A DNA stretch of 32,001 nt from Rhizaria sp. SCN 62-66 (Eukaryota), in NCBI GenBank assembly GCA_001724265.1, contig MEDY01000347.1:1-32001 (forward strand), written 5' to 3'. Of the stretch, positions 680 to 27,668 are shown one piece after another. The position numbers were made by a program, and so were the translations under genes. The notes beneath the pieces are model-generated. The model was not told where the DNA came from. It was given only the letters and a program-made list of their open reading frames with translations, and made no database searches. Positions within the stretch are counted from its first letter, which is position 1; each line of letters opens with the position of its first letter.

Positions 680-3600
680 ATGCAGCGCGGACTCGGCAGT
701 CCTTCCGACGCACCCGCGCCGGGCCTGGAAAAATCCGCCGCGCCGCGTTCCGCGGCCGCCCCGGTCTCCGCCGCCGGTCCCAGCGGCCCCGTCCCCGCGA
801 CCGTGAGCTCGACCGTGAGCGCCGCCGCGCCGCTTCCCGCCCCCACGGCGGCCGTGGCGCACGCCTCGCCGGCACTGCTGAAGCTGGCCTCGACCGCGTC
901 GTCTGTGGGCGCCGGCTCGGCCCCGCAGTCGACGCGCAGCCCGCAGGCCTCGCCGACGCAGAGCAGTGTCAGCCGACACAGCAACTCGAACACCCACGTT
1001 GCTGTGTCAGTTCCTGGTCCTGCTGCTGCTTCAACAGTTGCGAGCGCGAGTGCCGGTGCTGCCGGTGTGGGCCCGACTGCGTTTTCGTTTGCGAATCGCG
1101 GCTCAACACCGGCCCTCACGCCGTCATCGTCGTCCGTGCAACAGCCGCAACAGCCGCAATAGCCGCAACATCACAGTGCCATTGCATTCGCGCCTATGCT
1201 CAACGCCAACACCGCGTATAATAGCGGTAGCGCGCACGCCAGTGCGAGTGCGAACGCTCCCGTGTCTGTTACCGGCAGCCACAGTAGCGCGAGCAGTCGC
1301 CTTGCAGCGCCTCCGAGCCAGAGTCCGAGTCCGAGCTTGAGCGCACACAACGCCCACTCCAAGACTCAGTCTCAGTCGCAGGCACAGGCACCGAGTGCAC
1401 AGCAGCAGGGCCAGGGGCGGACACAGAGGCCGAAGCAAGCGCGTCCTGTGTCTGCTGCCCACGGTCACCCTTCTACATTTGCGGCTGCTGCGTCTGCGTA
1501 CGGCAACGGGTCTTACTAGCACTCGGGGTATCACCCGAGCTATGCGCAGAGCAGTGGCGGCAACGGCGGCGACTACGCGGCCGACATGTACAGCCAGCTG
1601 ACGCCTCTGTACGCGGACGCCGATGCTGACGCGGCACACACGGGCGCCGCCAGCGCAACCGCGTACGGCAGCGGCGACTACGGCGGCTACACCGCTGGCT
1701 ACGGCCATAGTGCTTTGGGCGGGTTTTACGGCAACAGCAGCAGTGCCATGGACAGCAATGCGATGCATAACATGAGTCTCGGCTACGGCGGAGGGTATCC
1801 GTATGCTCACAGTCAGACTGCGACAGGAGTGCCGAGTGCGTACAACGCCCACGGCGGCGGTTATGCGATGAACATGCACGATATGAGCATGGGCGCGTAC
1901 CCGGGCTACGCTAACGGCTACTACGCCCACGGTCACTCCGCTGCCCACGGCCACTACGGACCGATGCCGGGCGCCAGTGCCGCCGGCCCCGTCCCCGCCG
2001 CATCGGCCGGCCATGGCCCCGGCCCCGGCCTCAGCAGCCTCGGCAGCCTGGGCAGCTTGGGCGGCCTCTCCGGTCTCGAGAGCGCCCCGACCGGGGTCTC
2101 GGCGCCGCCGGAGCCGCTCGCGGTGGTGTTCATTCCGGGGCTGGGCCACGTCAGCACTGCTGCCCTCACGGACGCCAGCGCGGCCTCGAGCACCGGCCCC
2201 CGCAGCGCCGCCACCGCGACGAACCTGGCCGCGGGCGGTTTCGCGCGGGACGCCGCGGCGAGCCGGGCCGACGGCAGCCCCGCCAGCGTGGGCGACTCGG
2301 CCGTGGCCGTGGGCGTGTCCGAGAGCGTGTCTGAGAGCGACAGTGGCGCCAGCAGTGGCCCGAGCCTGCCTGCGCCGCTAGCGCAGCCGCAGACGAGGGC
2401 CGGGGCGGGTGCGGCGAGTCGCGGCGCCGCGGCCAACACGGGCGCCTACGGTCACTCGCTGCGCGGACCTCTTCTCGCCCACAGCCACGCACATAGCCAC
2501 AGCTTCGACTACGACAGCGGGGTTGGCTTCGACCACGGGTCTCCGCACTCGACCACCCGTTCTGTGGCTCAATCTGCCTCCCAGTCTCTGACTCAGCAAC
2601 AGCAACAGCAACAACAACAGCAACGCGGACTGGGTCAGTTCTCGCAGGGCTACGCGCAATACCCCGTGCACCCCGGTATGTACCCAGGTCACTATGCACA
2701 CGCCGCGAACAGCAGCAGCAACGGCGGCAATTGGGGCCCGTACTATCAGCAGAGGCCGCCGCACGCCCCGCTGCCTCACTCTGTTGCGCACTCGGTCGCG
2801 CACTCGATAGCTCAGTCTCAGTCTCAGTCTCAGTCAGTGGCCAACTCGGCGACTCCGTCTCGATCACAGTCGCGGGCGCCGTCAGCTGCGCCCTCTCGCG
2901 GGCCGTCTCGCGCACCTTCGCCGGCCCCCAATGCAACCGCTACAGGGGCGAATGCCAACATTGCCGCGAATGCGAGTTCAGCTGCGACCGCTCCCAACAA
3001 GCCAGTCTCCAACAGCACCAACAACGCTAATGCTGGTAATACAGGCGCTGGTCTTGGCCTTTCCCTGTCACTGTCCCGGGCCGCGTCGATGGCCCACTCT
3101 GCGGCGCACAGCCAGACCGGCGGCCTCCCGCTGAGCGCCGGGGCCAGCAACAGCGCGGGCGACGGCAGGGCCCCGTATCCCCACCCGCATCCGCTGGCGC
3201 TGGCGTATACGCGCGCCCAGTCCCAATCGCACATGCAGCTCGCGCAGCAGGGCGGCGGCTACGCCTCCACTGCGACCCTGCAACAGCAACATCAACAGCA
3301 GCATCAACGGCAATATCAGTTGCAACAGCAACAACAACAGCAGCAGCAACAGCAACAGAGGGTGCTTGGTGGCTACCCCAACAGTGGCAGCTTCACTGGC
3401 TACGCGCCTCAGCCCTATCCCAACAATGGCACGATGTACACCACCAATGGTGGCTTTGTCGGCACTGGGTACGGCTACGCCTACGCCAGCGGCTACGCAG
3501 GCGGGCCCCTCACTCCGGTCACTGCGAGCCTCTTCAACTACGCGAACCCCGCGTACTCCGCGGCGCACTCCGCGGCGCACTCCGCCACGCACTCTGTCGC

Positions 3601-6600
3601 GCACACGCCGCGGCACACGCCTGGCGTCACGCCGGCGCCGTCACCGGGCCCCGGCGCCGCCGCTGCTGGCGTCCTCCCGCCGCCGCTGCCGTTGCCTCAG
3701 CCGCAAGCGCAAGCGCAGGCGCTGCCGCCGCGGCCGCCTCAGACCAACCCTAACAACACCGGAGGCGTTGCGCCCGCCTCCGCGTCGCAGTCGATGCCGC
3801 TGTTACAGTCGCAGGCGCTTGCGCAGGCACTGGCTAATGGTGGAGGCAACAACATCTCCAGGGGCCCGCAAATGGCTTCTCTGCAGTCGTCCGTGTCTGC
3901 AGCGTCCTTGTCGTCATACGTGCTGCCGGCCCCCGGTGGCCTCACGGCGAGTGCTAGCGCGGGCCACAGTCACCCGGCCGGCGCTCCAGACGCAGGGAAC
4001 GACGGCTTCACTGCCCTCGCGGCCGCCGGCGGCGCCGTTAGCACGGGCGCCGCTGGCAGCGGAGTTGTGGCGCCCGACAGTGACCCCGCGACGCAGTACC
4101 GGCCGCGGTCTCGGTCGCGCTCGTGGTCGGGCGAGCCTGCTGTATGGATTGACCCTCAGGCTAGCAACAACAACAACAATAGCAATGCTAGAGCGCACAA
4201 TGCGAACGCGAATTTCGTCAGCGCGACCGCGAATGCGCCTGCCGCGACTTGCACCGTTGCTCCTGCTGCTGCTGTTGGTGCTGGTAACGATTCCGCTCGC
4301 GGTGGTTTACTGTCGTCGCTGCTGTCGTCTGTACAGTCGCGTGTTTCCGCCATTCTCGACACCAACAACGCCGGCAGTAATGCGACAAGCGGCGCCGCGA
4401 ACAACACATCTGACAACGCAGCTGCAACTTCATCTGCTGCTGCTGCTGCTGCTGTCGTAAAGGAGGGTGCCGCGACTGTTGCCGCATCGGCGACGACAGA
4501 GGACGCCGCCCTGCGCGGCGTTGTCCGTTCCCTCGCGCGGCCCCGCGCGGACTCTCTTTCCGACGGCGAGGGCGCCGCGGCCGCCGCCATCGCGGCCGCC
4601 GCGGCCTCTGCGCATCCTTTCGCCGCAAGCCCCGGCGGCGCGACGGCCGGCGGCGGCGGCGGCGCGACGGGCTCCTCCCGGCTGTGGCAGAAGCTGCTCC
4701 CGCTCGGCGGCCGCATCAAGGCCGCGGCGCGCCGCGCTGTGGGCTCCGCGGCGACGTCCTCGGCCGCCGCAGCGCTCGCCGCCGCGGCGCCCGTGTTTGC
4801 GCCGACCATCGCCGCGGCCGCGGCCGCGGCGGCAAGTCCGCCGACCGAGAGGGGCTCTCAGATCGCGGGCTCCGGCGCGAAAAACAACGCGGGCGACTCA
4901 AGTAGTGCTGCCGGAGTTACTGGCGCTGGCTCCGGCGACAGCGATCAGCAGACCGCAGACGCGCTCGTGGTCGGCATGGGGCAGGTGTTGCCGCTTGCGG
5001 GCACGCGTACCCTACCTCCCGGGCTGCTCGGCGCGCTGGGTTTAGACCGGGACTCGGCCTTCGCGAACCCTGACAGCCACGGCAGCCGCAGCCGGAGCTT
5101 CGGCGGCGGCGGCGATGACGAGAGCTACAGTCTGCGGGCCGCGTTCGCCGGTGCCGGCGTCGGGGTAGGCGGCAGGGGCCGGCGCAGGGGCCGCGGGCAC
5201 AGGCACAGGGGGCACTCCGCAGCCGCCGGTTCTAATGCGACGGGTGCTGGGGCCGCTGCGGATGCGAACGGGTCGCAGTCGCCGCTGAACTTGCAGTCAC
5301 ACTCACACTCTCACTCTCAGGCTCAGGCTCAGTCGCAACAGCCCCAGTCGCGTCCGCGGTCGCAGTCGCGCGCCAGCAGGGGCGGCAGCCGCAGCCGCGA
5401 GCGCAACAGCCACGGCGACACCGATTACTCGGACCACTCGTCCGACTACAGCGACTACAGCGACGACTACGACGACGAGGACGAAGAGGAGGACAGCTAT
5501 TACTACGACGACGACAGCAACGCCGGCGGCGCCAACGGCGAGGCCGCTCGCGTCGGCCGCCGGCGCCGCAGCAGCAGCAGCAGCACCAGCAGCAGCAGCC
5601 ACGGCACCAGCGGGCTCTACAGCATCGTCCGCGGCGGCGGGCCCGGCGGCGCGAACGCGCGCGGCCGCGCCCGCAACGGCGCCAGCGGCGGCCGCGGCGG
5701 GGGCCAACGCCCCGGCGCTGCTGCTAGCGGCAAGCGCGGTGGCGGCGGCGGCGGCGGTGGTGGGATTCGCAATGGCGGCGCGGGCAGCGAGCGCGCACGG
5801 CGCAGCTCGTCGTTCGACGATGAGGACTACTACGGCGACGGCGACAACTCGAGCGCGCTGTTGCGCGCATGCCAGTCGCTGCTGGTGCTGCTACCGCCGT
5901 GCTGCGCGTGGTGCATCCCGCACGCGGCCTGGCGGCGCCGCTCCTGGGGCCACACCCTGGCCGGAGTGGCCGTGCTGCTCCTGACGCTGGCATCTCTCCT
6001 GCTCTTCATCAAGTCCGTCGCGCGCATCGAGGGCGTGTCACTGGGCCCGCTCGCCGTCGACAACGCGCTCGCATGGTCACACCCGGAGTTCCAGGCCGTG
6101 CTGGCCGCCGAGGCGGTTGCTTTGGGTGCCAAACCCGCGCCCGTCGTTGCGCTTCCCCTCGCTCCGCCGCTGCTCGACGAGGGCGCGACCATCCCGCCCA
6201 ACACAGACGCTGACGCTCGCACGCGTGCTTCGATGATTGACTCAGGCGCTGTTGCTGGTGATGCCGCATCCGGCGTCGTGAGCGCGGTCAGCAAGCGCGT
6301 TTCGCCAGTGGCGTCGTTCATCTCGAGCTTTCTCACCGCTTCCGCTCCGGCCCGTCGCCTGCTGCCCCCGCCTGCCTCGGCCATCCTGCCGCCCGCGGCC
6401 CCCGTGCGGCGCCGCATGGTGCACCTGGACGTCACCGCGCTGGCCCCGACGCCGCGCCTGCTGCTGCAGCTTATCCCGCAGATCGCGCGCTGGGGCGCGA
6501 CGCACCTGCTCATCGACTGGGGCCCGCTGCTGCCATGGTACGGCGCCCTCGCGCCGGCCGCCGCGGCCGCCGGCGGGTTCTCGCGGGCCGACGTGCTCGC

Positions 6601-9600
6601 GGTGGCCACGGCGACCAAGCGCGCCGGGCTACGCCTGGGCATCGTACTGCCCGTGCTGACCGACGCAGGGTACTTGCTCAAAGCAGTGCCGGAGGCGCGC
6701 GAGCTAGCGAACGCCACGTTCGGCTTTACTGCAAACAATGACTACAGCAGGCGCCGCCGCCGGTCTAAGCGTCGCAACGGCAAGCAAGACTCAACACCTG
6801 GCTCTGGTCTTAGCGCTGGCTCTGCTGGCTCGACTGCGAGCAGTGCGACGGCGGCGACCGACGGCAGCGGCCTCGCGTGGCTGCACCGGCACCCCGGCAT
6901 GGCCGCCACACCCGCTCTGATCCCCGGGGGGCCGGGCCAGGCGCTCGTGGCCGAGGCGCTGAACCAGGCCCTGTCTCTGCACGGCGCGATCTACGTCGCC
7001 GAGGAGCACGCCAAGGCCGGCTGGGGCCGCAAGGACGAGGACGATTATTACAACACTGACGCTACGACCAGCGCCGCGTCGCCGTTGACTCACACGCAGG
7101 GCCAGACTGACGACACCGCCGCGCTCGCGCCCGACGCTGCGATTGCGGGCGCGCACAGCGAGTTCTCGTCCGCCGCCCGCACCGCCGCCGCGGCCGCTGC
7201 GGCCGGGGCGGGCGAGCTCTCCTCGGCGCCGCCGCGCGTTTGGAACGGGACACTGCTGCCGTGGGCACGGACGCGCGCCGAGCGCGAGGACCCCACGTCG
7301 CCGGCGCTGACCGTGCGGTCCCCGGCCGACGGCACGCTGCTGGTGCTGGTTCCCGCGGTGGACTTCGTGCACGTCGGCTCCTCGCGGCTGCCCGCTGTGC
7401 TCGCGCGCCCTGGCGCGTGCGTGTCCTGCTCCGCCCGCGGGCTCCCGGCCACCGAGATGGCCCTCGCGCGGTTCGCGGCCGTGGCGGCGCATCTGCGCAC
7501 CGAACACTCGCCGCGCGTGACGCCGCTGGTGTCGGACGACGGCGCGAGACTGTGGGAGACGGGCAGCCTCGAGGCATTGGCCGACGCCGGGTACAACCTC
7601 CACATCGCGAACCCGGACCCGCTGCTGCGCGGCCCGCCCTACGTGCTGCGCAACTACCTCTGGAACGGCTACCGCGCGCACTTCGCGCCGCACACGCTGT
7701 GGGGAGGCGCGGTCTACCGCGGCGCCGCCGGCGACGCCGAGCCGCTGGCGGACGCGGCGGCCGCAGCGGGCGCGGCGGCGGGCGCGGACCCCGCGGCGGC
7801 GGACGACAGAGAGGTTGAGCGTGTGCGCAGCGAGATCGCCAATCTCGCCAACAGCTACGCCGGGGTCAGCAGCGCGAGTGCCCAGAGCAGTGACATGCTC
7901 AACACTGCGGGCGCTGCTGGCGCTGGTGCTCATGCTGACGCTGTTTCCAATGGCTTCCCCGGTGCTGGTGGCTTTGTAAGAGACAACGTCGGAATCGACC
8001 CTATTGCTGCGTTGATGGCTGCAGCAGCTGTTGCCACTGACTCAGCAACGGCCGCCGCAGCCGCAGCCGCAATCAACAGCTACAGTCCCAACGATCAAAG
8101 CGACGATGCTGGCTTTTGTACCATCGAGCGCGAGCGCGCCTGCGACAACGACGGGGGTGCCAGCAAGAGCCCCGACTGGTGGCAGCGCTATGTGTTTGCC
8201 ACTGAGAGCTCGTGTCTCAATGCGAGCACGCGGAGCAGCCAGAGCTACAGCATTAGCTACAACTTCAACTACAGCTACAGCCGCACCCACGTCAGCTCAA
8301 ACAACGACGAGTACGAGACCGACACTATGACGACTACATCAGCGACGACCACGACGACGACGGTCACGTCGGCGACTCTTGTCCGCGGCGCGAGCCACGG
8401 GTTCCCGCTGTCCGACTGGCGGTCCGTCGCGACCGCGGCCGCCGCAGCCCCCGCCGCGCCCCGCGGCAGCGCCCCAACGCCCTTTGGCCCGCTCAAGGCG
8501 GTGGCGGCCGCACTGCGCCACACGGCGACCGACACGGACATCAGTATTGCTAACAGCAACTCCAACGCTGCCAGAACCAGCGTTAACGCCAACACGCGCT
8601 CAAAGTTGAAGAATGTTGCTCACCCCAGTTCTGTGTTATCCCAACAGCAACAACAGCAGGAACACGCGTTGGAATTGCCCCCGATCTATAGCGACGACTC
8701 GTCGGTCACTGCCCTTTTGGGCGACGTCCTCTCGCTGCCGCGCGCAATGGCGCCTTTCACGCTCTCGCTCACGGTCACCCTCGCACTCGGCGCCGACGCG
8801 GCCGCCATCGCGCGCGCCTCCGCATCGGCCGCCTCCGCTCCACCCGCGGGGTCTGCGGCGGGCGGCGGCAGCGGCAGCGGTGGCGGCGGCGGCGCGAGTG
8901 CGGCGGCACTGAACGGTGGCGCGCTGCCGCTGCTACCCGACATCGCCAAGCGCGTGTCGAACGCGCTCGCGTGGGCCCGCGTCGTGACGCGCGTCGGACT
9001 GGGCGGGATCGTGCTTATGGGGCCCGCGCGCGCCCCGCTGGCGCCGCTCGACGACGCGTACGAGTACCAGTACGAGCAGAGCAGCGAGTTCTTGCCTGAG
9101 AGCGTTCGCAGCAGCCTTGGCAACAACGACGTGTCCTCCAGTGCGGACGGTGATGACGGCTACTCCGCTGACAGCTACGATGATGACGACGACAATGAAA
9201 CGGAGGGTGACGACTCCATCGACTCTCATGCCGACAACAGTGCCGACAATAAATACGCTACCTCTCCCAGTCGCAGCCGTGGTCGCCCGACGCTCGTCCT
9301 CCCCCTTGCGCCCCCGCGCCCGCTGTCGGAGCCGCTGGCGGCCGCGCTGCCCGCGCTGGCGGCGTCGCTCGCGGCCCTGCGCGCGGGCCGCCTCCACGCG
9401 GAGACCCGCGACGGCGTCCTGCGCTCGCTGGGCTTCGCGCCGCTGAACCCCACCGCCGACGAGCTCGCGCTGTACAGCCGGACTGGCCGTCGCAGCGACC
9501 GTGCAGTCGCCACCGAAGCGTCGCCCGCGCTGCTGTCGGTCGAGGAGGCGACGACGGCGCCCGCGTTGTCGCTGCCGCCGCCGCTGCCGCTGCACTCGGA

Positions 9601-12600
9601 CCTGGCCGTGCTGCGGCCGCCGACGGACGCGCGCTGGCTGTCGGGCGTGCCCGCGCTGCGCTTCCCCGGCGCGCTGGTGCTGCGCGTGGCCGAGCAGCTC
9701 GAGGCGATCCGGCAGCACATCGCGGCCGTCGACGCCAAGCGCGCGATGCTGGCGCAGGCGCTCGTCATGACCATGGCCAAGGCGGCCACTGCGGCCGCGA
9801 CCGACTTTAACGTCGGACAAGACAGCAGTGCTGTGGGCGAGCTTGACAGCCGTGTCGAAGAGAATGAGGTCATCGTCGTCAACACAGTGAAGCCGAACCC
9901 GACTGCGCCTGCCAGTGGCACTAAGACTCCGCCGCGCCAACCGCCGTCGTCGCAGTCGCCCGCGGGCGTGTCCCCGGGCTCTCTGGCGACCACCGTGGCC
10001 ACGGTGGTTGCCATGACCGTCGCGGACCCCAGCCGCGCGGGCGGCGCGGTGCGGCGGCGCAGCCGGCCGCCGCCTGGCGCCAACGCGGGCCACTGGCTGA
10101 GCAAGATCTGGGACAAGCTGGCGGGGTCGGCGCAGTCGCTGCCGGGCTTCCCGGGCCTCTCATCTCTGGACGCCAGCGCTGCCGCGAGCAGCAACGCCAA
10201 CGCCGCTAACACGATTACTGCAGCGGGCAGTGCTGGCGGCGTTGGTAGCAGCGCAAACCCTGGCGTTACTCGGGAGTCAGCTGGGTCGGCGTCTGCACAA
10301 GATGTAAAGTCGGGGTCATCTGCCGATGCATCCGTCACGAACTCTGCTACAAAGCCGAGTGTTGATGGCTCGACTGCAACAGATAGTAGCAGTAGCGACG
10401 CAAATGCTGTTGCAACCGGTGCTAAGAAGTCGGAGTCTGCCACTGCGACGCAAGCCACTCCCTCAGCCTCTGGCGCTTCCACTGCATTGACTGCGACTGT
10501 CTCATCTGTTGACGTCGATGCGCTGCCCCCCGCCCTGGCCCCTCTGGGCCCGCTGGCGCCGCTGATCCGCCGCGAAGTCGCCGCCCTGGTCGCGCGCGCC
10601 ACTGCGCTGCGCCGCGCTCTGCAGACGCTGGCAGCATTCTCTACCGCGCGGCTGGCGCCGCTGCACTCGGTCACCGCCGTGGACGAGCTGTTCAAGGGCG
10701 TCGTGGGAGTGACTGCGAGCGAGATCGTCGCTCGGTCCCGCGTACAGTCGCATTCGCGGCCGCAGTCGCCTAAGTCACCAGTTGATGCCTTAACATCTAT
10801 CACCAAGGATGGAAATGGCAAGGGTGGCTCACCGGCGACTACTATTGACAAGGGTAAGAAGAAAAGCAGGAACAAGAGCAATAATAGCAAGACCAAGGAC
10901 AATGCTTTAATCGAAACTACGATGAAGGACATTGATGTAAGTTCAAGCTCCGCTTTGCCTGATGGTGCAGCTGACACACTGACTCAGACGAGGATCAAGA
11001 CAATGACGCCCTCAAAGACTACGCCTGAGTCCCAAGCCAAGTCTGACACGGACACTGACGCTGCATCTGACGCTGACAACGAGAGTGCTGCTGAGAGAGA
11101 CTCTGCCGTTGCTAACGACGCAACGCCTATCAATGCCGCAGAGTCATCATCTGATGCGACCACCAGCTCTGCTGCCACCGCCCAGCCGAACGCCACTGCT
11201 GCCGCCGCGACGAGCCCTGTCATCAGCGCGAACCTCGTCGCCCTCGGCACCGCCAAGCGCATCGCGGCCTCGCTCGCCACCGCCGCCGCCGAGGCCGCCT
11301 CCGCCTCCGCCTCCGCGTCGCCCTCGTTCTTCCCCGGCGTCTCCGGCGCCAGCGGCGGCACTGCGGCCGCCGCCACGGGCGCCGCGGAGCCCGACGTGGA
11401 GGCGGACGCGGGGGCCGGGCTGGGCTCGGTCTGTGACTGGCTGCCCGAGTGGGTCCCCGGCTGCCACAGCGACGAGGATGTTAACGCCGACGAGGGGAGC
11501 ATCGACGCGACGCCTGGCGAGGCTTCTAATCCCGCGGATGCCAATGCGGTCAGCGCTGCCAACGCCGTTGCGGCCGCGGCTGCGGAATCGATGCTGCTTG
11601 AGTCATTCGCAAAGAGCATGGACGCCGCTGCGGGCTCTAACTCCCGCACTCGCCCCGGCTCAAGTTCTAGCTCGAGTGGCCGCACTGGCGTCAGCTCCAC
11701 CGGTGTCCCCGTTCCTGTTCCTGTCCCGACTTCCCCCGTGCCCAGCAGCGTCTCTAGCGCCGCCAAGTCGCCCCGCGTCGGCAGCGGCGGCAACGGCATC
11801 TCGCTGCACACCGTGATCCTCATCTCGGGCGCGCTCTTCGCGCTCATCGTCGGCATCCCGCTCGCGCGCCTCGCGATGGCCTCACGCTGCGCGCACGCGC
11901 TCGCGCGCCGCGGGCTTCTGCCGCGCTGCTGCGTGCTCGCACCGAGCTCGGACGCGCGCTTCCCGCTCAACGCCAGCGGCGGCGGCAACGGCGACGACGA
12001 CGGCGACGACGACGACGGCGACGAGACCGGCGACGGCGATGGCGGCGCTGGCGGCGATGGCGCGAGCGCGGTTGCGCCGGTGCGGTTGCTCGCTTTACGC
12101 GAGCGCGAGCGCGATGGGCACCGCCAGCTCAGCACGCGCAACAGCAGCAACGCGAGCGCGCGCGCAAACGGGTTCGAGCTTGACCTCAGTGACAGCGACA
12201 CGCAGAAACATCAGCAGAAGCAGCACCAGGGCGGCGCACAGTACACCGTCGACGGCTCTGATGCCGGCGCTGCTATCAGCGTGGGTGGCAACCGCGAGTC
12301 GCCTGTCAGCGCTGAAGAAGAGGCCGCTGCGGTCGCAGTTGGCAAGCTTCTGACCGACTCGACACCGTCGATGTACAACAATAGCGTCAATGCCGGCGAC
12401 ACAGTGTTTGTTACTGGCAGCGCGGGCGCTCACATCGCAGCCATTTCTGCACCGTCTCTCACAAACTCAGGCTCTGGCTCCGGCTCCGCTTTCGGCACCG
12501 GCGCCGGCTCAGGCTCTGGCTCCGGTTCGGGTCCCATTGCCGCCGCGGCGGGCGGGCGCACCGCCACGAGCAGCAACTTTACTATGACCTACGGCGGCAA

Positions 12601-17316: not shown

Positions 17317-17347
<31 letters not shown>

Positions 17348-20300
17348 CCGTGGCCAGCAACCCCCTCGCGACGCCGACCCGCCTGCCCCGCACGCCCAAC
17401 AACGGCAACGGCCACGGCAGCACTCCGCGTAACGGCGCCACCTCTGGTGCGGGTGTGCTTGGCGCCAGCGACGGGTTCGTCATCCGCCGCGCGGCCGAGA
17501 TCACCGAGCTCGGCAAGGTCCCCTTCGACAGCAGCAACGTCGCTCCGCTCCGCGCGCGCGCCCGCGCCCTCGCCGTCGCGCGCCTCTCCGCCAAGACTAA
17601 GACCCAGGACGACTGCGCTGGCGCTGAGGCTGACTCGGCGATGGCCGCCGCTGCCGCCGCCGCGGCCGCCGCGCTGGTCGTCCCGCCCGTCCCAGGCGCG
17701 GCGGCCGTCCGCGACTCGACCGTGACGGCGGCCATGAAGACGCTGCGCAGCAAGCAGAGCATTGTCAAGCGCTCGCGCGCGCTCTATGATCTCTCGGCCG
17801 TGTACCGCCTGCTCACTGTCTCGCGCACTGAGGCCGTCGTTGCGGCGCCCGAGCCCGCGCTGGCGCTTTGGGCGCGGCACCCCGCCAACCCGCACTGCAC
17901 CGCGCCGGCCCCCGGGCTTGATGTAAGTACCCCTTACCCCGTGCCGAGCGCCGCGGTCTCCGCGAATGGCAGTTTCAGCGCGCACACGCCGAGCCGCAGC
18001 AGCCGCGCCGCGTCCCCCTTCGCCTCCCCCGCCGCTACCGGCCGCAGCAACGGAGACTCGGCAGACGCGGACGCGAGCGCCGGCGAGGGCCCTATGACGC
18101 CCTCGCGCGGCCGCAACCGCCGTCACCCCAGCCGCAACACTCCGCGCGGCACGCCGAACGCCGCGGCGACGACGGACGACGACGCCACGACCAGCAATAG
18201 TGCCAGCGTCAGTGCGAGCGCCACGCCGTCCCGCTCCCCCAGCGCCCGCACCCACAACAACGGCGCCGGCGCCGGCAACGGCAGCGGCAGCGTCAGCAAC
18301 ACGCCCAACACGCTCGCACCGCCTGCGGCGCTGTTGGGCGTGGCGCCGCACGGGATTAAGATTAGCGCCTTCGCGGCCTCCCCGTCCCCCGCCCCCACCC
18401 CGCGTCGCGGCCGCAGCGGTCACGGCCAAGGTAACACGACTGCGTCCGAGGCCGCCGCCACGGCTATCACGGCCGACGCGCCCCAGAAGCTCCGATGCGC
18501 GCTCTTCGCGCGGCCGCAGCCCGGCGCCCAACCGGGGGCCGCGGGTGGGGAGGTCTGCGCGCGCCCCTCGGAGGTGGAGGCGCTGATCGACGCGGCCGGG
18601 GGGCCCACGGGCGCTCTCGTGCACCTCCAGCGGCTCATGGCGGCCGCGCGCGGCGCCTTCACGTCCTTTGCCGAGCTCACTGCGGCCGTTGAGGTCCTCG
18701 CGCGGCCTTACAAGGAGATGGAGAAATCGGCGGCGAGTGATGAGGTCGAGTTCCAGGCCGCGCACGCCGCGGCATCCGCCTTGTCTTCGTCGGCTGAGAG
18801 CAAGGCTGACGAGGACGACGAGTCCCCCATGGCGCTTCAGGTACGTTCTGGAGGATACATCTCACTCTAACAATATGTTTCTAAAACTCCACATCGATAT
18901 TTACTGACAAGGACTTTCTAATCTTACCAACTATTGTCGTAATTCACTTGAAGTCGTTTTATTTTTCTCATATCATCGAATACCATTTCGTTTGACTCTT
19001 TCACATCTTTGCTTCCCTTTTCTCAGGCTCGCTTGTCCCGCCAGGCATTCTCCCGCGCCGCGCACCCCGCCCGCCGCTCCGTGGGCGCGCTGCTTAATGA
19101 CGGGACCGTGTCCTTCGACGTGGCCGAAGTGCTGGAGGAGCTGGTCGAGGAGGACGTCAACTTCCACTGGGAGCTCTTCGTCGCCGACAAGCAGGACCTC
19201 GAGTCCCCCGCCTTCTGGCTCGGCGCCGAACGGAACCCCGAGTCCGCGCCCGCCAAGGCGCTCGCGCTGCTGGCCGCGAACCGCTCGCTGCCGGTGTCGG
19301 CGCTCGCGTCCCCGCGAAGGCCCGTCGTGCCGCTCACCCCCAGCGCCACATCCAGCACCAACTCCGTTGCCGACGGCATCATGCTTACCCCGCCCTCGAG
19401 CGCTAGCAAGGCCAGCAGCAGCGGCGGGCTGACGGTGCACCCGCCCGCGACGCCCCGCACCCCACGCACGCTGCCCTTCGCCACGCCCAGCGGCTCGCTC
19501 AGCGGCTCTCATGGCGGAGTGACTCCGATCCTTCCGCCGTTGACGCCTTCGCAATCACAATCGCACGCCGACGCCCGCACCCGCCGCGCGCGCTCGCAGC
19601 TGTCGCTGGCGCGGCTCATGCAGCAGCAGGCGCGCAATGAGGCCGCGCGCAAGTTCGTCACCTTCCAGCTCACGATGGCGGCGGCACAGTGCAACGCCGC
19701 CGCGATGGAGCGCTACACGGCTTACCTCGTCACGAACGGCATCGCGTCCGACTCCGAGTCCAGCGCGACCGTCCAGGCGCAGGTGGGCGCGCAGAGCCAG
19801 AGCGCGGTGCACTGCGCGAAGTTCGCTGACGTGTTCCCCGCCGCCGACGCAGAGGCCACCGCGGCCGCCGCGGGCGCGCTGTTCCCAGCGTACCCCCTCG
19901 TTCTGACGCACGCGCACGTGTCGGAGCTGCTGGTCGCCGCGCTGGGCGCCGTGCCCGCGCAGGCGCACCTGGCGACGCTCAAGCACGAGGCCGCGCGCGC
20001 GAGCAGCGACCGCCGGCCCGCCCGTCCTCAGCCCCTGCTGCTGGCGACTTGTGACCGCGAGCGCGGCTACGGCGCCCTGCTGTCCCTGCGCTCCCTCGGC
20101 AGCGCGCTCGCGTTGCTGTCGCTGCCGATCATCGTCCACGCGGACCTGATGCACGAGACGCTCATCGCGCTGCGCCCTGCGGCCGCCCCCACCGCTGCCG
20201 CCGACGCCGCCGAGGGCATCAACACGAGCGCGCAGGACCGCGGCGAGATCCTCAACGACTTGACCGCGCACTACGCGGTGCCCACGGTCTCGGCCGAGCT

Positions 20301-22710
20301 GGCGACGGTCGGCATCCGGGCCGGCGACGCGCTGCTGGGTGTGGCCGATGCGTTCGCGCAGGTCGGCCAGGAGGCCGCGTTGCCGCCGCTGCTCGCCGCC
20401 GCGCGCCGCCACGCCGCCAACGCCGACGTCGAGAACGACGAGGAGGAGTTTAGCGCCGCGGAGAGTGCGCTGCCGGAGCGTCCCCACGCGTTGCAGATTG
20501 TCGCCGCAGCGGCCGACTATGCCGCGACGGTCACGGGGCTGCCCGCGGCGACGCAGCGCCTGTTCTACCGCCTGCTGCTCAAGCAGCACGGTCTGGCCCC
20601 GGTTGTGAACCCTGCCAACCGGACCGAGGCCGTAGCGCTATGCCCCGCCGGCTCGCTCGAGGCCGTCACCGCCGCCACCGCCGCGGCCGCGGCCGCCGTC
20701 GCCGCCAGCCGGGCCGCAACCGGCGACGCCGCGGCCGCTGCTCAAACCGAGGAGCAGGTCACTGCAGTGAGCGGTGTCGCCGCTGACAGCGCTGTGCACA
20801 CCGCCGTTACGTACGACGACGAGGAGGAGGACGCGGTCGAGCCCGAACCGCTGCTTATCTCGTACTCCTGTGGTAATCCGCCCGAGGTGGTCATCGAGAC
20901 CGTGTCCGCCGCCATTACTGACGCGGCCGACGTCGACTCCGCTGCCGCTGACGCCGACACCGACGCGGACAGCGGCGAGAGCGCAGACGCTGTGGCCGCG
21001 TTTGCCGACGCGTGCTCCGCCGAGGCCGCCGAGGCCTGGGGCGCGCGCGCGGGCGCGATGCGCGCCGAGGAGGAGGGCGACGAAGAGGAGCTCGCGGCTC
21101 GCCAGCAGCAGCTCGCGTTCCGCCAGTTCGCGCGCCAGACCCGCGCCTCGGCGCTCGCGACCGCGGCCGAGAAGCGCGCGGCGGGCGCCGAGCTGGATGA
21201 GGACGAGGCGGCGCTGCTGGCCGAGACGGCGGGCGAGCGGCGCGTGCGCGAGCGGCTTGAGGCAGACGAGGACCGCGAGGTCGAGTCGTTCGAGCGTGAG
21301 GCGGCGGCTCGCAAGCAGCAGCACCGCGAGGCCGTCGAGGCTCACGCGCTGCAGCAGGCGCAGCTCGCGCGCCGGGCCAAGCGCAGCGCCGTGCGCGCGA
21401 TGCTCGCGCGGTCCTACCAGGCTTTCTTCGTGGCCCCCGTGGCGCCCGAGCTGCCGGTGATCGTGCCCGAGCCGCTGCCGGAGCCGGTCGTGGTGGCCGC
21501 GGTGGCCGTTGTCGCGCATACGGTTGCGCCTGAGCACGCCGTGACCATCCTGCCCGCGGTTGCCCAGGCCGCCGCGGCTGGCGCCAACACCGAGACGGCT
21601 CCTGTGCCTGCTCTTGCTCCTGCGAAGGGCGAGGCTGGGCTCACCGTGAGAGTCGTGGCCGAGGACGCTGACGCCGAGGCGAAGGCTGAGGCTGAGGCCG
21701 AGGCTGCTGCGAAGGCCAAGGCTGCTGCTGCTGCTGAGGCCGCCGCAGCAGCTGCTGCTGCTGCCAAGGCTGAGGTTCAGGCAAAGGCAAAGGCTGCTGC
21801 TGACGCGAAGGCCAAGGCTGACGCTGAGGCTGCTGTCGCTGCTAAGGCGAAGGCTGACGCTGATGCCAAAGCTGCTGCCGATGCCGATAACGAGGCTGAG
21901 GCTAAGTCAAAGGCTGCCGAGGCTGAGAAGGCAGTGTCGAGCGAGACGACTGCTGCCCCCGCTGCTGTCGCTATCGTTGCTCCCGGCACGCCGTCGAACA
22001 AACTGGGCCGCTACACTTTCACCGCGACCCCCACCGCGTCGGCCGCGGCCACGCCCGCGATGACGCCCGCGCCCTTCGGCTTCGGCCGCAACGGCGGCGC
22101 GGCGGGGCACAACGACTCGGTCGCCATGAGCAGCTTCAAGACTCCCGGCAACAACAACGCGACTGCGGCCGCGACGCCTGCGACCGGCACCTCCATCCGG
22201 GGCACTCCGTTTACCCCTGGCTCCGGCCGGTACTCGTTCGGCCCAGTCAACCTCGCATCAGCTCTCAACTCTACTAAACCTACCCCCAGCGCCGACAAGA
22301 CTGCTGTTGAGGATGATGATGATGATGCGGACGCGACTGTTGGCGGTGGCAAGGGCCGCGCGCCGCGGCGGTACTCCTACGCGCCGTCGCAGCACGAGCT
22401 CGACGCGGCGCGCGCGGACCAGGACCTCGACGACATCGGCGACGCGCTGGCCAGCCGCGGCAATGCCGACGGCAAGCAGGGCGGCGACAACGACCGCCCC
22501 GATGACCTGGACGACCTCGACACCGATGACGCTGCTGACGTCAGCAAGATCGGCGCCGGCAAGCCCCGGAGCAAGGCGGCCGCGGCCGGCGAGGCGCTGG
22601 GCGAGCGCCCCGCACGCTGCAATTCTCCTGGCACAGGCATCTTCAGCAAGAGCGTGTCGCTGCTGAGCTTCGTCGGTATTAATACCGAGCACCTCGCTGT
22701 CGAGTGGTAA
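16705..22710 (+). CDS. Large uncharacterised protein (~1,939 aa), Ala/Pro/Ser-rich with charged coiled-coil segments; 2 exons (16705-18840, 19027-22710); one in-frame TAG at 17191
   Basis: ORFs 16705-17193 and 17233-18870 share a frame across a single TAG (GAC TAG GAC GGC...). Phase-0 intron CAG|GTACGT...TTTTCTCAG|GCT joins to ORF 19009-22710, which ends at TAA before T-rich UTR. GC3-rich codon usage throughout. Confidence 0.8.
18841..19026 (+). other. Spliceosomal intron (186 nt, phase 0)
   Basis: GTACGT donor, AT-rich body with an in-frame stop, pyrimidine tract and CAG acceptor; removal restores the frame. Confidence 0.88.
21661..21932 (+). repeat. Degenerate Ala/Lys/Glu/Asp coding repeat (AEAKAEAEAEAAAKAKAAAA...AKAKADA), predicted helical stalk
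   Basis: Recurrent gct/gag/aag/gac codon units (aaggctgag, gctgctgct, aaggctgac) visible in the sequence. Confidence 0.7.
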
Positions 22711-23379: not shown

Positions 23380-25023
23380 TTACCACCCATGCCCGCGGCC
23401 TTTACCGGCCTCCTTGCCCTTGCCCGCGGCGTCCGCCTGGTCCTCGCCCTCGCGCACCTTGGCCCGCGCCTCCTCGCCCTCCTTGCGCACGTCGCGCCAC
23501 TTGCGGCCGCGCTTGCCCTCGCGCACGACGAGCACGTCACAGTCGCAACCTCGCGCCACGGCGTCGCTGAAGGTGCCCAGCAGCAGCCGCGAGAGCGCGC
23601 CCTTGTGGCCCGATCCCACGACGACGAGGTCGGGGTCCACCGTTTTGATCAGCTGCCGCGCCGCCGCAATCGGTGTCACCGTTGGGCTCGAGTGGAATAC
23701 GATGAACGGTCCCTTGCAAGCGCCCGCCGCTGGCTCACTCCCCGCCGAGACCGTGATTGCGTTGGGGCACAGGATCGCGAGCCGTTGCTTCATCACGCCG
23801 ATGACAGGGTCGGCGGCGACTGCAGCTTCCAGCGCGGCGGCGTCGGCCTCGGCCTCGGCGCGCTGCAGCTTCTGCCGCTGCTCGTGCAGAGTCAGCGGAC
23901 GGCCCTTCTTCGCAGCAGCAGCGGCGGCAGTGGCGGCGCTGTTACTACCACTGGTTGAGCTGGGTGAAGGAGACTCCGTGGCGCTAGTACTGTGGGCCAC
24001 AGAGTCGCGAGCAGCCTTCTCCTTGGCGGCAAGGGCGTCGCCGGTGAAGTCGACAGTGAAACCCACTCCAGGGGTGATCGAGTCAAACGTGCCTTGATAA
24101 CTACTCTCGTAGCCACTTGAGCTCACACTCGCCGCCGCATCAGCGCCGTTGGCTTGAGACTTGTTTCCGGTCTTGACGCTGATGAATTGAACACCGTCCT
24201 TGTTGCTGCTCTCCTTGCTCTCATTCAGGTTGATGCTGATGATTCTGTTCCCAAGCGTATTACCGCCGCCACCACTCAGTGGCGCCGAACTCGACTGCTG
24301 CTGCTGATGCTGCTGTTGGCCGTAGGCAGTGTTGGACCAGTGCACGGCGTGGACCGTGTCGCCGTCGCGCGCGGACGCCACGGCGGCGTCGAACGCGCCC
24401 TGCGCCGCCTCGCTGCCGTCACAGAAGACGACGATGACGCGCGGGAACGCGCGCAGCGCGCCAGGCGGCGGCGGCGGCAGCGGCGGCGCGGGGGCCAGCG
24501 AAGCCAGCGACGGCAGATGCGGGAGGGACGGCAGGGAAGGACCGCCGCTGCCGGGGGCGGGCGCGGTCGGGGAGGGGGCGAAACGCTCCAGGAGCGACTC
24601 GGCGACGGCGGAGACGGAGGCGGACTCGGAGTCGGCGGCCGGCGACGCGACGTTGGCATGGGCGTTGCCGTCGCTATTACTGTCCTCGAAGGAAGCGATG
24701 GCGACGAGAGCGCCGCTACCGAGCAAGGCTGCAACAGAGGAAGCGGTGCGGCGACCCTCAGAGCTGTTGTAACCACCATGGCTATTGTTGCTGGAGCTGT
24801 GGCCCCTGCCGTGACCGTTGTTGTGCGTCTTATTAACTGAGAGCGTGGTACGACTGTCAATCGGATTCGCGCCACGGATAGCACTGACGCGGCGGCTACC
24901 TGTCTGGAGTGATGTGGGAATCATGGGACGTGCCAACGTGGTACTTGCCAGAGTTTTAGCTCTACTGAACAGAGGACGCGCCGAGCGAACGAGAGCAGAT
25001 CGCATGGCTAAAGACGAAAACAT
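23380..25023 (-). CDS. Universal stress protein (UspA-domain) with mitochondrial-type presequence and possible TM anchor (547 aa)
   Basis: UspA N-terminal motif VIVVFCDGSEAAQGAFDAA..TVHAVH and C-terminal motif DLVVVGS...SRLLLGTFSDAVARGCDCDVLVVR. N-terminus MFSSLAMRSALVRSARPLFSR resembles a presequence. Ends at TAA. Confidence 0.85.
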   Translation of the reverse strand: MFSSLAMRSALVRSARPLFSRAKTLASTTLARPMIPTSLQTGSRRVSAIRGANPIDSRTTLSVNKTHNNGHGRGHSSSNNSHGGYNSSEGRRTASSVAALLGSGALVAIASFEDSNSDGNAHANVASPAADSESASVSAVAESLLERFAPSPTAPAPGSGGPSLPSLPHLPSLASLAPAPPLPPPPPGALRAFPRVIVVFCDGSEAAQGAFDAAVASARDGDTVHAVHWSNTAYGQQQHQQQQSSSAPLSGGGGNTLGNRIISINLNESKESSNKDGVQFISVKTGNKSQANGADAAASVSSSGYESSYQGTFDSITPGVGFTVDFTGDALAAKEKAARDSVAHSTSATESPSPSSTSGSNSAATAAAAAAKKGRPLTLHEQRQKLQRAEAEADAAALEAAVAADPVIGVMKQRLAILCPNAITVSAGSEPAAGACKGPFIVFHSSPTVTPIAAARQLIKTVDPDLVVVGSGHKGALSRLLLGTFSDAVARGCDCDVLVVREGKRGRKWRDVRKEGEEARAKVREGEDQADAAGKGKEAGKGRGHGW

Positions 25024-25538: not shown

Positions 25539-27668
25539 ATGTCTGAGTCCGGCGTTCCGCCCGCACCCGCGGCGTCTACTACGCTCCCCCTCTCGATTGA
25601 CGAGCGTGCGGAGCTCGCTCGCCTCCGACGTGAGAACGCTTTTCTGCGCGCTCGTCTTGACGCCCTTGAGCACTCCACTGTCAGTCCAAACACTGACGAT
25701 TTGCGCAAGGAGACCAACTACGCCACTGCGGCAACTTCTACCACATATTCATCCAACTCAGCCGCTGTATCCGAGCTCGAGCGCGCGGCGAGCGTCTACA
25801 CGCGCGGCCACTCGCTGACCCGGCGCGAGATCAGCCGTTACGGCCGCCAGCTCATCATGCCCGAGCTTGGCGTCGCCGCGCAGTAGCGCTGGCGTAATGG
25901 CTCCGTGCTCGTCATCGGCGCGGGCGGTCTGGGCGCGCCGGTCTGCCTCTACCTCGCGGCTGCCGGGGTGGGCCGGCTCACGGTCGTGGACGACGATGCG
26001 GTGGAGGAGAGCAATCTGCACCGACAGGTGATCCACCGCGAAAGCACGGTGGGCCAGCCCAAAGCGGAGTCGGCCCGCGACGCCTGCGTGGCTTTGAACA
26101 GCACCATCACAGTCACTGCGGTCGTCGCGCGCCTGACCACCGCGAACGCGCTTGCCCTTACTAACGCGCATGACGTGATTATTGACGCGTCTGACAACGT
26201 GGCGACTCGGTATCTGGCTTCGGACGCGGCTGTCCTGGCCGGAAAGCCGCTTGTCTCGGCATCGGCACTGAGGTGCGAAGGGCAGATCACGGTCTACAAC
26301 GCGTTCGCCGACACACCGTGCTACCGTTGCCTCTTCCCCGCGCCGCCGCCCGCGGCCACGGTGCTGAGCTGCGGCGACGGAGGCGTTATGGGGCCCGTCC
26401 CGGGTCTGTTGGGAATCTGGCAGGCGACCGAGGCGCTAAAGGTGCTTGCCAAGGCTCCGGCGAACGAAGTGCTTTCAAGGTACATAACTCGGCCATCATT
26501 TCGCATACTCAACAACTAGAATCGCGATACATGGCGAAACAACCTGTGTCTGCATTATTTACTCTTCGTTTTATTCCTTCTTATTTTATGTTGATGTAAA
26601 ATTCTCACATTGGTTACTTTGCAATCTACACATCTACCTGTGCACTCATCGTATAGGCGTCTCATGTTAATCGACGCTGGTGCAGCCAAGGTGCGCACCG
26701 TCGCCCTCCGGGCCAAGGTCCCCGGCTGCGCTGCATGCGGGTCTCCTTACATCCCCGCTAACGTGCACAAAAACACTCCTGACAATGCGGGCACGGTTAA
26801 CTCTAGCACAGATGTGAACACGGATGGCAAAGTGTGGCTCAGTGAAGAGACTCTGCTGGCAGGTGCTCTGCCGGGGCTTTTGGGCGCTGTATGCCCTGTC
26901 ACAGCCGCGGCTGCTGCTGACGCTGCCGCTGCCGCCGCTGAGGCTGCAGCTCCTGCTGCTGCGACTAGATCCAAGCCCGCGACTGTCGCCGCTGACAATA
27001 CAGAGGCGGCAGCGGCAGCGAAGGCTGAAGCTTTGGCTCTTGGTTGCGAGGGCTACGTTGCCGTCACTGACACTGACAACGACATTAGCAGTTTCAGCAC
27101 CGCCACTGCAGGGATGCGCAATTCTAATAGTGAAAGCAACACTGGGAGTTGTTTGTTTTTCTCAGAGACACCTAAGGACGCGTGGGCACGTGTTACCAGC
27201 AGTGCGGCTTTACTTCTCGACGTCCGCGACGCACCGCAGCGCGCGATATGCTCGCTTCCCCCCGCGTCCGCATTGCAGCACAAGGCGGACGTGCATATCC
27301 CGCTCGCAGCGCTGTCCACCGAGCAGGGCCAGGAGGCGCTGGCGCGCGCTGTCATTGAGTTTCGCGACGCGCGGAGAGAGGCGCGGGCTAAGGGAGCACT
27401 GGCACCGTCTAAGGGTGGCGCTGCGGAGGAGAGCGTGGTGATCGTGGTTGTGTGCAGGAGGGGCGTGTTTTCACGCACAGCTGCCGAGCTCATCGCTAAG
27501 AGCGCACTGGGCACGTGCACGAATAACAATAACGCTCACACGACAGCTTGCCACACTGTCAACGATGGCCGTGCCAGTCGCGCAGTCGCTGTAAGTCTTG
27601 TTGTGAACATGCGGGGCGGACTCGAAGCGTTTGCGAAGCAGATTGACCCCGCGTTTCCACTGTACTGA
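25539..27668 (+). CDS. MOCS3: Adenylyltransferase/sulfurtransferase MOCS3/UBA4 (ThiF/MoeB + rhodanese), ~650 aa; exons 25539-26479 and 26657-27668; in-frame TAG at 25884
   Basis: RYGRQLIMPELGVAAQ*RWRNGSVLVIGAGGLG, VDDDAVEESNLHRQ, DASDNVATRY, CYRC, SCGDGGVMGPVPG, CAACG, LLDVR, rhodanese loop CRRG and the C-terminal GGLEAFAKQIDPAFPLY. Splicing gives LSR-RLMLIDA. Ends at TGA. Confidence 0.93.
26480..26656 (+). other. Spliceosomal intron in MOCS3 (177 nt, phase 2)
   Basis: AG|GTACAT...GTATAG|G boundaries, AT-rich body with in-frame stops; splicing yields the expected LSxRLxLxD segment. Confidence 0.85.

What the first reader, a model, noticed from the sequence alone, without database searches (positions are those of the whole stretch)
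1160..27668. Non-standard nuclear genetic code: UAG appears to be a sense codon (probably Gln) while UAA and UGA remain stops
Seen: five isolated in-frame TAGs (1160, 1517, 13412, 17191, 25884) in three genes. In each case the same frame and the same GC-rich codon usage continue afterwards, with no splice signals or frameshift. No internal TAA or TGA occurs in any exon. All seven visible gene ends use TAA (126, 14105, 22708, 23380, 29194) or TGA (14353, 27666), and none uses TAG. The 3' contexts of the TAGs differ (CCG, CAC, TCA, GAC, CGC), so there is no shared readthrough signal. Known: in nuclear codes UAA and UAG are nearly always reassigned together. Uncoupled cases are rare, for example UAG=Gln in the fornicate Iotanema spirale and some phyllopharyngean ciliates, and UAG=Leu in an uncultured rhizarian. 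Inference: this organism uses a UAG=Gln code (the pattern of NCBI table 15), which needs a tRNA-Gln(CUA) and an eRF1 that no longer reads UAG efficiently.
Basis: partly seen in the sequence, partly recalled or inferred. Interest (0 to 1): 0.95.

Follow-up and report, generated by a model that had tools for sequence, protein, structure and literature searches.

The report
UAG read as sense codon
An uncultured, GC-rich microbial eukaryote from wastewater reactors appears to translate the stop codon UAG as an amino acid (probably glutamine) while still stopping at UAA and UGA, a rare kind of genetic-code change.

Summary
All five TAGs are at the stated coordinates and in frame, in three intron-bearing eukaryotic genes: a 4,475-codon low-complexity protein, a 1,939-codon orphan protein and MOCS3/Uba4. 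Codon usage favours the same frame on both sides of every TAG (9 of 9 flanking segments). In MOCS3 a single ThiF domain match runs across the TAG. In 8,614 modelled codons there are 5 in-frame TAG, 0 TAA and 0 TGA. All 7 gene ends use TAA (5) or TGA (2).

The TAGs are not a one-off assembly error. An independent study's DNA contig matches across TAG 13412 without a difference. The ORF pieces that end at TAG 17191 and TAG 25884 occur on 6 and 7 public contigs. No uninterrupted version was found.

Reading UAG as a sense codon is well supported (about 0.8). Glutamine is less secure. TAG 1160 replaces CAG in a 9-base tandem repeat, but the only conserved column (MOCS3) is variable and rarely Gln (2 of 119).

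No whole genome, tRNA or eRF1 could be reached, so the tRNA/eRF1 mechanism is inferred. The lineage is unplaced and has no close relative in the databases searched. This is a new member of a known, rare kind (UAG-only reassignment).

The parts
1160..1162 (+). In-frame TAG no. 1, codon 161 of the giant gene. It sits at the CAG position of copy 3 of a 9-base tandem repeat.
1138..1170 (+). Tandem repeat, period 9, 3.7 copies, unit GCAACAGCC (reads Gln-Gln-Pro in frame)
1517..1519 (+). In-frame TAG no. 2 of the giant gene, in a Gly/Ser/Tyr/His-rich stretch
13412..13414 (+). In-frame TAG no. 3 of the giant gene, followed by 230 open codons up to the TAA. Confirmed in a contig of run X3.
680..14107 (+). 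Giant low-complexity gene, 4,475 codons plus TAA, no Pfam family
17191..17193 (+). In-frame TAG no. 4, codon 163 of the orphan gene. GC3 is 0.89-0.91 on both sides.
16705..18840 (+). Orphan gene, exon 1
18841..19026 (+). Intron of the orphan gene: 186 nt, GTACGT...CAG, 35% GC. It holds the TAA at 18868.
19027..22710 (+). Orphan gene, exon 2, ending in TAA at 22708
25884..25886 (+). In-frame TAG no. 5, inside the ThiF domain of MOCS3/Uba4
25539..26479 (+). MOCS3/Uba4 exon 1 (ThiF domain)
26480..26656 (+). MOCS3 intron: 177 nt, GTACAT...TAG, 37% GC
26657..27668 (+). MOCS3 exon 2 (rhodanese region), ending in TGA at 27666 at the conserved C-terminus
126..128 (+). TAA end of a partial upstream gene with strongly biased codons
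14353..16170 (-). YbeY-domain gene with no in-frame stop, ending in TGA (14353-14355)
23380..25023 (-). Usp-domain gene with no in-frame stop, ending in TAA (23380-23382)
29194..30591 (-). Fatty-acid hydroxylase family gene. Three exons (30591-29923, 29778-29626, 29445-29197) and introns of 144 and 180 nt. It ends in TAA (29194-29196).

Best explanation
The window is nuclear DNA of an uncultured, GC-rich, intron-bearing microbial eukaryote found in bioreactor and wastewater metagenomes. In this organism UAG is decoded as an amino acid, most likely glutamine, at a low rate of about 0.6 per 1,000 codons. UAA (preferred) and UGA remain the terminators. This is the pattern of NCBI table 15.

Shown here: the five TAGs lie inside coding frames, one of them inside a conserved domain; the same interrupted ORFs recur in other assemblies; no gene in the window ends in TAG.

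Inferred, not shown: a tRNA with anticodon CUA, one base change away from tRNA-Gln(CUG), reads UAG; and eRF1 has lost most of its UAG recognition.

My odds are about 0.8 that UAG is a sense codon, and about 0.65 that it is Gln if it is one. The confidence given is for the whole statement, Gln included.
For: (1) MOCS3: Pfam ThiF matches residues 102-309 as a single stretch (E 1.5e-70), and the TAG is residue 117 of that translation. The conserved motif just before the TAG and the glycine-rich nucleotide-binding motif just after it both align with 119 homologues. At the TAG column the ten commonest states are all residues.

(2) Codon usage is best in the TAG frame in 9 of 9 flanking segments. 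GC3 periodicity continues across the TAGs.

(3) The frames stay open for 118 to 3,964 codons after each TAG. The out-of-frame stop density in the same genes is 367 per 17,228 codons.

(4) In 8,614 codons there are 0 in-frame TAA or TGA, and 7 of 7 gene ends are TAA or TGA.

(5) Recurrence: a contig of run X3 from another study is identical over 12055-13474. P0123 (ends at TAG 17191) is on 6 contigs, P0124 (ends at TAG 25884) on 7, P0122 on 4 and P0002 on 6. No uninterrupted form appeared in three searches.

(6) For Gln: TAG 1160 is the CAG position of the third copy of a 9-base repeat. TAG 13412 follows three CAG-Ser/Thr pairs.

(7) Precedent: UAG-only reassignment with UAA kept as stop is known (passages of PMC5304391; abstract of PMC11687900).
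Against: Only five TAGs and seven gene ends could be examined.

Five of five nonsense codons being TAG is expected 13-16% of the time from codon usage alone.

The one conserved column does not favour Gln: Leu 35, Ser 15, Ala 13, Glu 10, Lys 9, Arg 9, Val 8, Met 7, Ile 6, Gln 2 of 119.

A repeat context shows that the ancestral codon was CAG. It does not show how TAG is read now.

TRF calls no repeat at 13412. A tripeptide-context model did not favour Gln.

TAG 1160 and TAG 1517 have no confirmation outside the window. Their flanking segments have the weakest coding scores, +0.07 to +0.08.

No tRNA, no Rfam match and no eRF1 lie in the window. RNA contigs bridging the TAGs were not shown.
Confidence: 0.55

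Rival explanations
1. UAG is a sense codon but stands for another amino acid. Leu or Glu are the other meanings known for UAG-only changes.
For: The only conserved column has Leu as the commonest residue (35 of 119), Glu in 10 and Gln in 2. The three best unnamed homologues have Glu, Glu and Ser there. TAG 17191 sits in an acidic run..Glu-Asp-Asp-TAG-Asp... UAG=Leu is known in the rhizarian exLh and in uncultivated phyllopharyngeans.
Against: TAG 1160 replaces CAG in a perfect 9-base repeat, and TAG 13412 continues a Gln-Ser pattern. The MOCS3 column is variable, so it excludes nothing.
Confidence: 0.25
2. UAG has two meanings: sense inside genes and stop at some gene ends, depending on context. 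This would resemble the ambiguous codes of some ciliates and Blastocrithidia.
For: In-frame TAG is rare, 5 against 299 CAG+CAA. Four of the 5 sense TAGs are followed by a pyrimidine, while 6 of the 7 true stops are followed by a purine. Only 7 gene ends were seen, so a minority of TAG ends cannot be excluded.
Against: 0 of 7 gene ends use TAG. The +4 difference is not significant at these numbers.
Confidence: 0.1
3. The code is standard. The TAGs are real nonsense alleles or decaying genes, tolerated through near-cognate readthrough by tRNA-Gln in Gln-rich contexts.
For: In yeast, premature stops flanked by Gln codons in Gln-rich mRNAs are read through with Gln inserted (abstract of PMC13192750). 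TAG 1160 and TAG 25884 follow a Gln codon. Random nonsense substitutions would mostly give TAG here.
Against: Three of seven genes would be hit, among them MOCS3, yet codon bias is intact after each TAG. TAG 1517, 13412 and 17191 are not preceded by a Gln codon. The same interrupted ORFs are found on 4-7 contigs, and the stretch is held by runs of 7 studies dated 2015-2025. No uninterrupted allele was found.
Confidence: 0.07
4. Assembly or sequencing artefact: the true base is C, giving CAG.
For: The window comes from a metagenome assembly. TAG 1160 and TAG 1517 have no independent check.
Against: A contig of run X3 from another study is identical across 13412. The exact ORF pieces bounded by TAG 17191 and TAG 25884 occur on 6 and 7 contigs in Logan and ENA. 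No other letters were listed at the three covered TAGs in four runs, though bridging pieces were shown only for 13412.
Confidence: 0.03
5. U-to-C editing of the mRNA restores CAG.
For: None directly. It would explain the CAG-like contexts.
Against: No difference was listed at the three TAGs laid in the polyA RNA run X5, but cover of those exact bases by RNA contigs was not shown. From my own knowledge, site-specific nuclear U-to-C editing of this kind is not established in eukaryotes.
Confidence: 0.03

Closest known systems
Iotanema spirale (Fornicata): UAG=Gln, with UAA and UGA as stops (PMC5304391, passages seen)
   Same: Only UAG is reassigned and UAA is kept as the dominant stop. It is a non-ciliate. 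A tRNA-Gln(CUA) is predicted.
   Different: Iotanema is described there as an anaerobic flagellate. This window encodes an enzyme of the fatty-acid hydroxylase superfamily; from my own knowledge such enzymes need oxygen. The MOCS3 tree gives no placement. TAG is much rarer here, and no relationship was tested.
Hartmannula sinica and Trochilia petrani (phyllopharyngean ciliates): UAG=Gln (abstract of PMC11687900)
   Same: UAG alone becomes Gln, and UAA is fixed as the preferred stop. Here 5 of 7 ends are TAA.
   Different: This window has 65-72% GC coding DNA and introns of 144-186 nt. From my own knowledge that is unlike ciliate macronuclear DNA. No ciliate affinity was seen, but it was not formally tested.
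Rhizarian exLh and uncultivated TARA phyllopharyngeans: UAG=Leu
   Same: Only UAG changes meaning, and the terminators are UAA and UGA. In exLh all 71 gene ends examined were UAA (56) or UGA (15).
   Different: In those organisms UAG sits at conserved Leu columns. Here the repeat context points to a CAG origin, and Leu is not excluded by the single conserved column.
NCBI translation table 15 (TAG=Gln; TAA and TGA stop)
   Same: The same formal code, if Gln is right.
   Different: The table is a formal description. Its use in this organism rests on five codons.
Ambiguous stop/sense codes (Condylostoma, Parduczia, Blastocrithidia; search listings only)
   Same: A stop codon is used inside genes.
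   Different: In those codes two or three stop codons are also sense. Here there are 0 in-frame TAA or TGA in 8,614 codons.

Membership tests
UAG-only reassignment to Gln (table 15 pattern) | In-frame UAG inside genes whose homology or coding signal continues on both sides | tested here: met
   The ThiF match runs across TAG 25884. Codon usage is best in frame in 9 of 9 flanks.
UAG-only reassignment to Gln (table 15 pattern) | UAG aligns with Gln in conserved columns | tested here: inconclusive
   Only one conserved column is available. It is variable, with Gln in 2 of 119. One tandem repeat puts TAG at a CAG position.
UAG-only reassignment to Gln (table 15 pattern) | UAG is not used as a terminator | tested here: met
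   0 of 7 gene ends. The sample is small.
UAG-only reassignment to Gln (table 15 pattern) | UAA and UGA still terminate and are absent inside genes | tested here: met
   Gene ends are 5 TAA and 2 TGA. There are 0 in-frame TAA or TGA in 8,614 codons. The MOCS3 TGA lies at the conserved C-terminus.
UAG-only reassignment to Gln (table 15 pattern) | tRNA with anticodon CUA and Gln identity | not testable with these tools
   No tRNA in the window, no Rfam match and no whole genome held.
UAG-only reassignment to Gln (table 15 pattern) | eRF1 N-domain changed so that UAG is no longer read | not testable with these tools
   eRF1 is not in the window, and no other contig of the organism could be reached.
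UAG=Leu codes (exLh, TARA phyllopharyngeans) | UAG at conserved Leu columns | tested here: inconclusive
   Leu is the commonest residue in the one column (35 of 119), but the column is variable.
Ambiguous codes with all stops also sense | In-frame UAA and/or UGA as well as UAG | tested here: not met
   0 TAA and 0 TGA in 8,614 codons.
Programmed stop-codon readthrough | A single leaky stop with a shared 3' signal, giving a C-terminal extension | tested here: not met
   There are five sites in three genes, four of them in the first sixth of their gene (codons 161 and 280 of 4,475, 163 of 1,939, 116 of 650; only TAG 13412, codon 4,245 of 4,475, lies near a gene end). The 3' triplets are CCG, CAC, TCA, GAC and CGC.

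The most novel reading that the evidence does not exclude
The organism belongs to a deep eukaryotic lineage not yet sampled by genomes. UAG changed meaning there independently, and in a genome under strong GC pressure, which is not the AT-rich setting usually invoked for loss of a stop codon. UAG may still be in transition: rare, kept to weak termination contexts (a pyrimidine after it), possibly with two meanings, or coding for something other than Gln.
Probability: 0.15. Interest if true: 0.85.

Novelty: new member of a known kind. Interest (0 to 1): 0.7.

Why it matters
Nuclear codes in which UAG and UAA have different meanings are few. The papers I saw list a rhizarian, a fornicate and some phyllopharyngean and oligohymenophorean ciliates.

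A further case outside the ciliates would add an independent origin. This one sits in a genome with about 80-90% GC at third codon positions, from a common engineered habitat, and still prefers TAA as its stop. That bears on how UAG can be freed from eRF1 without touching UAA.

There is also a practical side. Standard gene callers cut this organism's genes at every TAG: the public protein collections hold its MOCS3 and its orphan gene only as fragments. Eukaryotic bins from wastewater metagenomes will therefore be mis-annotated unless the code is set.

Tried and rejected

- More DNA of the organism or of a close relative. A scan of JGI metagenome contigs with MOCS3 gave at best 62% identity. 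A scan of prokaryote genome contigs gave at best 56%, in bacterial or archaeal records by their titles. Neither brought a same-organism contig.

- Orthologues of the orphan gene, to read the residue at TAG 17191.

- Exact look-ups of four guessed ORF pieces of the giant gene were not in the collection. The gene caller probably chose other starts. This says nothing about TAG 1160 or TAG 1517.

- Read laying at 85% likeness was swamped by low-complexity matches. Bridging pieces were displayed only for TAG 13412. For 17191 and 25884 there is only 'no other letter listed'. The splice joints 18840/19027 and 26479/26657 were not among the joints shown. Parts without cover in the RNA run are not used as evidence.

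- A tripeptide-context likelihood for the TAG residue was dominated by Ala and Ser and was uninformative. TRF found no repeat at 13412.

- The MOCS3 tree (52 rows, the quick method, because the careful search did not finish) left the query on a long branch with no supported set. The lineage stays unknown.

- Pfam on the giant protein, whole and on 6380-7900 at E up to 10, found no family. A resemblance to hexosaminidase-D-like domains that I recalled is therefore unsupported.

- Literature: five searches found no report of a GC-rich wastewater eukaryote with UAG as a sense codon. Tables of further taxa in PMC5304391 and PMC11687900 were not seen.


Full report
**What the window is.**
Coding stretches are 65-72% GC. 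Stretches between genes and the introns are 35-50% GC. No whole genome is held for the window.

The stretch 16600-26500 is held by public runs of 7 studies. These are labelled bioreactor, wastewater, activated-sludge and microbial-fuel-cell metagenomes, dated 2015-2025. One run may be the source, and one is a polyA metatranscriptome. So this is an uncultured eukaryote of engineered water systems.

**Gene models:**

| Gene | Coordinates | Strand | End |
|---|---|---|---|
| Partial gene with highly biased codons | to 128 | + | TAA 126 |
| Giant low-complexity gene, 4,475 codons, no Pfam family | 680-14107 | + | TAA 14105 |
| YbeY-domain gene | 14353-16170 | - | TGA 14353 |
| Orphan gene, 1,939 codons, 186-nt intron (GTACGT...CAG) | 16705-18840 + 19027-22710 | + | TAA 22708 |
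| Usp-domain gene | 23380-25023 | - | TAA 23380 |
| MOCS3/Uba4, 177-nt GT-AG intron, ThiF E 1.5e-70, weak rhodanese match | 25539-26479 + 26657-27668 | + | TGA 27666 |
| Fatty-acid-hydroxylase family gene, three exons | 29194-30591 | - | TAA 29194 |

The exon joins of the hydroxylase gene are confirmed by P0125, a contiguous homologue that is 63% identical.

**The observation.**
When TAG is read through, one frame runs from 545 to 14107.

With the models above there are 8,614 in-frame codons: 5 TAG, 0 TAA, 0 TGA. The other two sense frames of the same sequences hold 367 stop triplets, so the open frames are a coding property and not a matter of composition. The zero for TAA/TGA is partly circular, because TAA and TGA helped to delimit the exons.

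A codon-usage score trained on the other genes is highest in the TAG-bearing frame in 9 of 9 segments flanking the TAGs. In 4 of 4 non-coding controls all six frames score below -0.6. The weakest coding scores, +0.07 to +0.08, belong to the two segments before TAG 1517. The segment after TAG 13412 scores -0.02 but is still the best frame, and 230 codons stay open behind it.

TAG 25884 is the best anchored. One ThiF match spans residues 102-309 with the TAG at residue 117. In an alignment with 119 homologues the conserved motifs on both sides are in register, and the TAG column is filled by residues.

**Is it an artefact?**
- Run X3, from a different study, has a contig covering 12055-13474 with no difference, which includes TAG 13412.
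- The exact 162-residue ORF from the ATG at 16705 to the codon before TAG 17191 is in the public protein collection on 6 contigs. The exact 115-residue ORF ending before TAG 25884 is on 7. The pieces that follow them are on 4 and 6.
- No uninterrupted version turned up in three searches.
- These contigs may include re-assemblies of the same samples, so they are not all independent.
- TAG 1160 and TAG 1517 have no check outside the window.
- The RNA run X5 has contigs that are 99-100% identical on all three TAG-bearing genes. No piece bridging a TAG or a splice joint was displayed.

**What chance would give.**
If the TAGs were random nonsense substitutions, this codon usage (CAG 233, GAG 298, TCG 211 and so on) would make 67-69% of them TAG. 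Five of five then has p = 0.13-0.16. Zero TAG among seven ends is likewise weak alone.

Three things carry it:
- three of seven genes have in-frame TAGs followed by long, correctly biased, and in one case homologous, coding sequence;
- at least three of the sites recur in other assemblies;
- no intact allele was found.

**Which amino acid.**
Tandem Repeats Finder reports a 9-base repeat at 1138-1170 (3.7 copies, unit GCAACAGCC). TAG 1160 occupies the CAG position of the third copy. TAG 13412 follows three CAG-Ser/Thr pairs, although TRF calls no repeat there.

These contexts show that the ancestral codon was CAG. That change is neutral only if TAG is Gln, but low-complexity sequence would tolerate other residues.

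The only conserved column, in MOCS3, is variable: Leu 35, Ser 15, Ala 13, Glu 10, Lys 9, Arg 9, Val 8, Met 7, Ile 6, Gln 2 of 119. A tripeptide-context model was uninformative.

I put Gln at about 0.65 given that UAG is sense. Leu and Glu, the other meanings known for UAG-only changes, are the main alternatives.

**Mechanism.**
This part is inferred from what is established for such codes (passages of PMC5304391). A tRNA with anticodon CUA would pair with UAG but not UAA. It is one base away from tRNA-Gln(CUG). eRF1 would no longer read UAG efficiently.

Neither molecule could be examined. There is no tRNA gene, no Rfam family and no eRF1 in the window. No other contig of the organism could be reached.

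Two small observations fit a codon that still competes with termination:
- TAG is rare, 5 against 299 CAG+CAA.
- Four of five sense TAGs are followed by a pyrimidine, while six of seven true stops are followed by a purine.

The numbers are too small to test this.

**Rivals.**
- Near-cognate readthrough of nonsense alleles in Gln-rich contexts, as shown in yeast (abstract of PMC13192750), could cover TAG 1160. It does not cover TAG 1517, 13412 or 17191, and it would leave three of seven genes defective.
- Assembly error is contradicted for three sites.
- U-to-C editing has no support, but it was not directly excluded.
- An ambiguous code with all stops also sense is not met: there is no in-frame TAA or TGA.

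**Lineage and novelty.**
The best MOCS3 matches outside the organism are 51-62% identical. A 52-row tree leaves the query on a long unplaced branch (quick method only). The orphan gene has no homologue among 1.84 billion representatives.

The GC-rich coding DNA and the introns of 144-186 nt are unlike ciliates (my own knowledge, not tested).

UAG-only reassignment is already known:
- UAG=Leu in the rhizarian exLh and in uncultivated phyllopharyngeans;
- UAG=Gln in Iotanema, Hartmannula and Trochilia;
- UAG with a meaning different from UAA in an oligohymenophorean (search listing).

Five literature searches found no report matching this organism. Supplements were closed.

**Verdict.**
The sense-codon reading is well supported. 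The Gln assignment and the tRNA/eRF1 mechanism are still to be shown. I class this as a new member of a known, rare kind, probably a further independent origin outside the ciliates.

Noticed in passing
window 18841-19026, 26480-26656, 29779-29922, 29446-29625: All four introns have lengths divisible by 3 (186, 177, 144, 180 nt). All start with GTAC, end in AG and are 35-40% GC. Each holds stop triplets in some frame; frame-specific counts were not made. Four of four in phase is about 1 in 81 by chance.
   Followed up: partly
window 126, 14105, 14353, 22708, 23380, 27666, 29194 against the five TAGs: True stops are followed by A, C, G, A, A, A, A. Sense TAGs are followed by C, C, T, G, C. This may mean that UAG is kept in weak termination contexts. 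The numbers are too small to test.
   Followed up: partly
L025 (metagenome contig, 1,330 bases): An unrelated MOCS3 gene (41% GC) has TAA at two positions where 109 of 119 (the Gln before the TAG column) and nearly all aligned homologues have Gln, and a TAG nearby. This is the pattern of a code in which TAA and TAG both mean Gln, as in many ciliates.
   Followed up: no
P0125 (JGI protein, contig of 12,754 bases): Its fatty-acid hydroxylase is 63% identical to the window's over the whole of exon 1 and is contiguous across both intron positions. It is the nearest relative seen for any gene of the window.
   Followed up: partly
window 16705-22710: The 1,939-codon gene has no detectable homologue in 5.8 billion or in 1.84 billion-representative protein sets, apart from its own fragments and one weak hit at E 8e-6. 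It has no Pfam family.
   Followed up: yes
window 680-14107: This is a 4,475-codon gene made largely of Ala/Ser/Gln/Gly/His-rich low-complexity sequence, with predicted hydrophobic stretches and no Pfam family. Its function is unknown.
   Followed up: partly
window 25873-25935: Contigs of runs X4 and X5 break between 25873 and 25934, and a G>T variant at 25935 is seen in all four runs laid. This suggests strain variation close to TAG 25884. It may be why no bridging piece was listed there.
   Followed up: no
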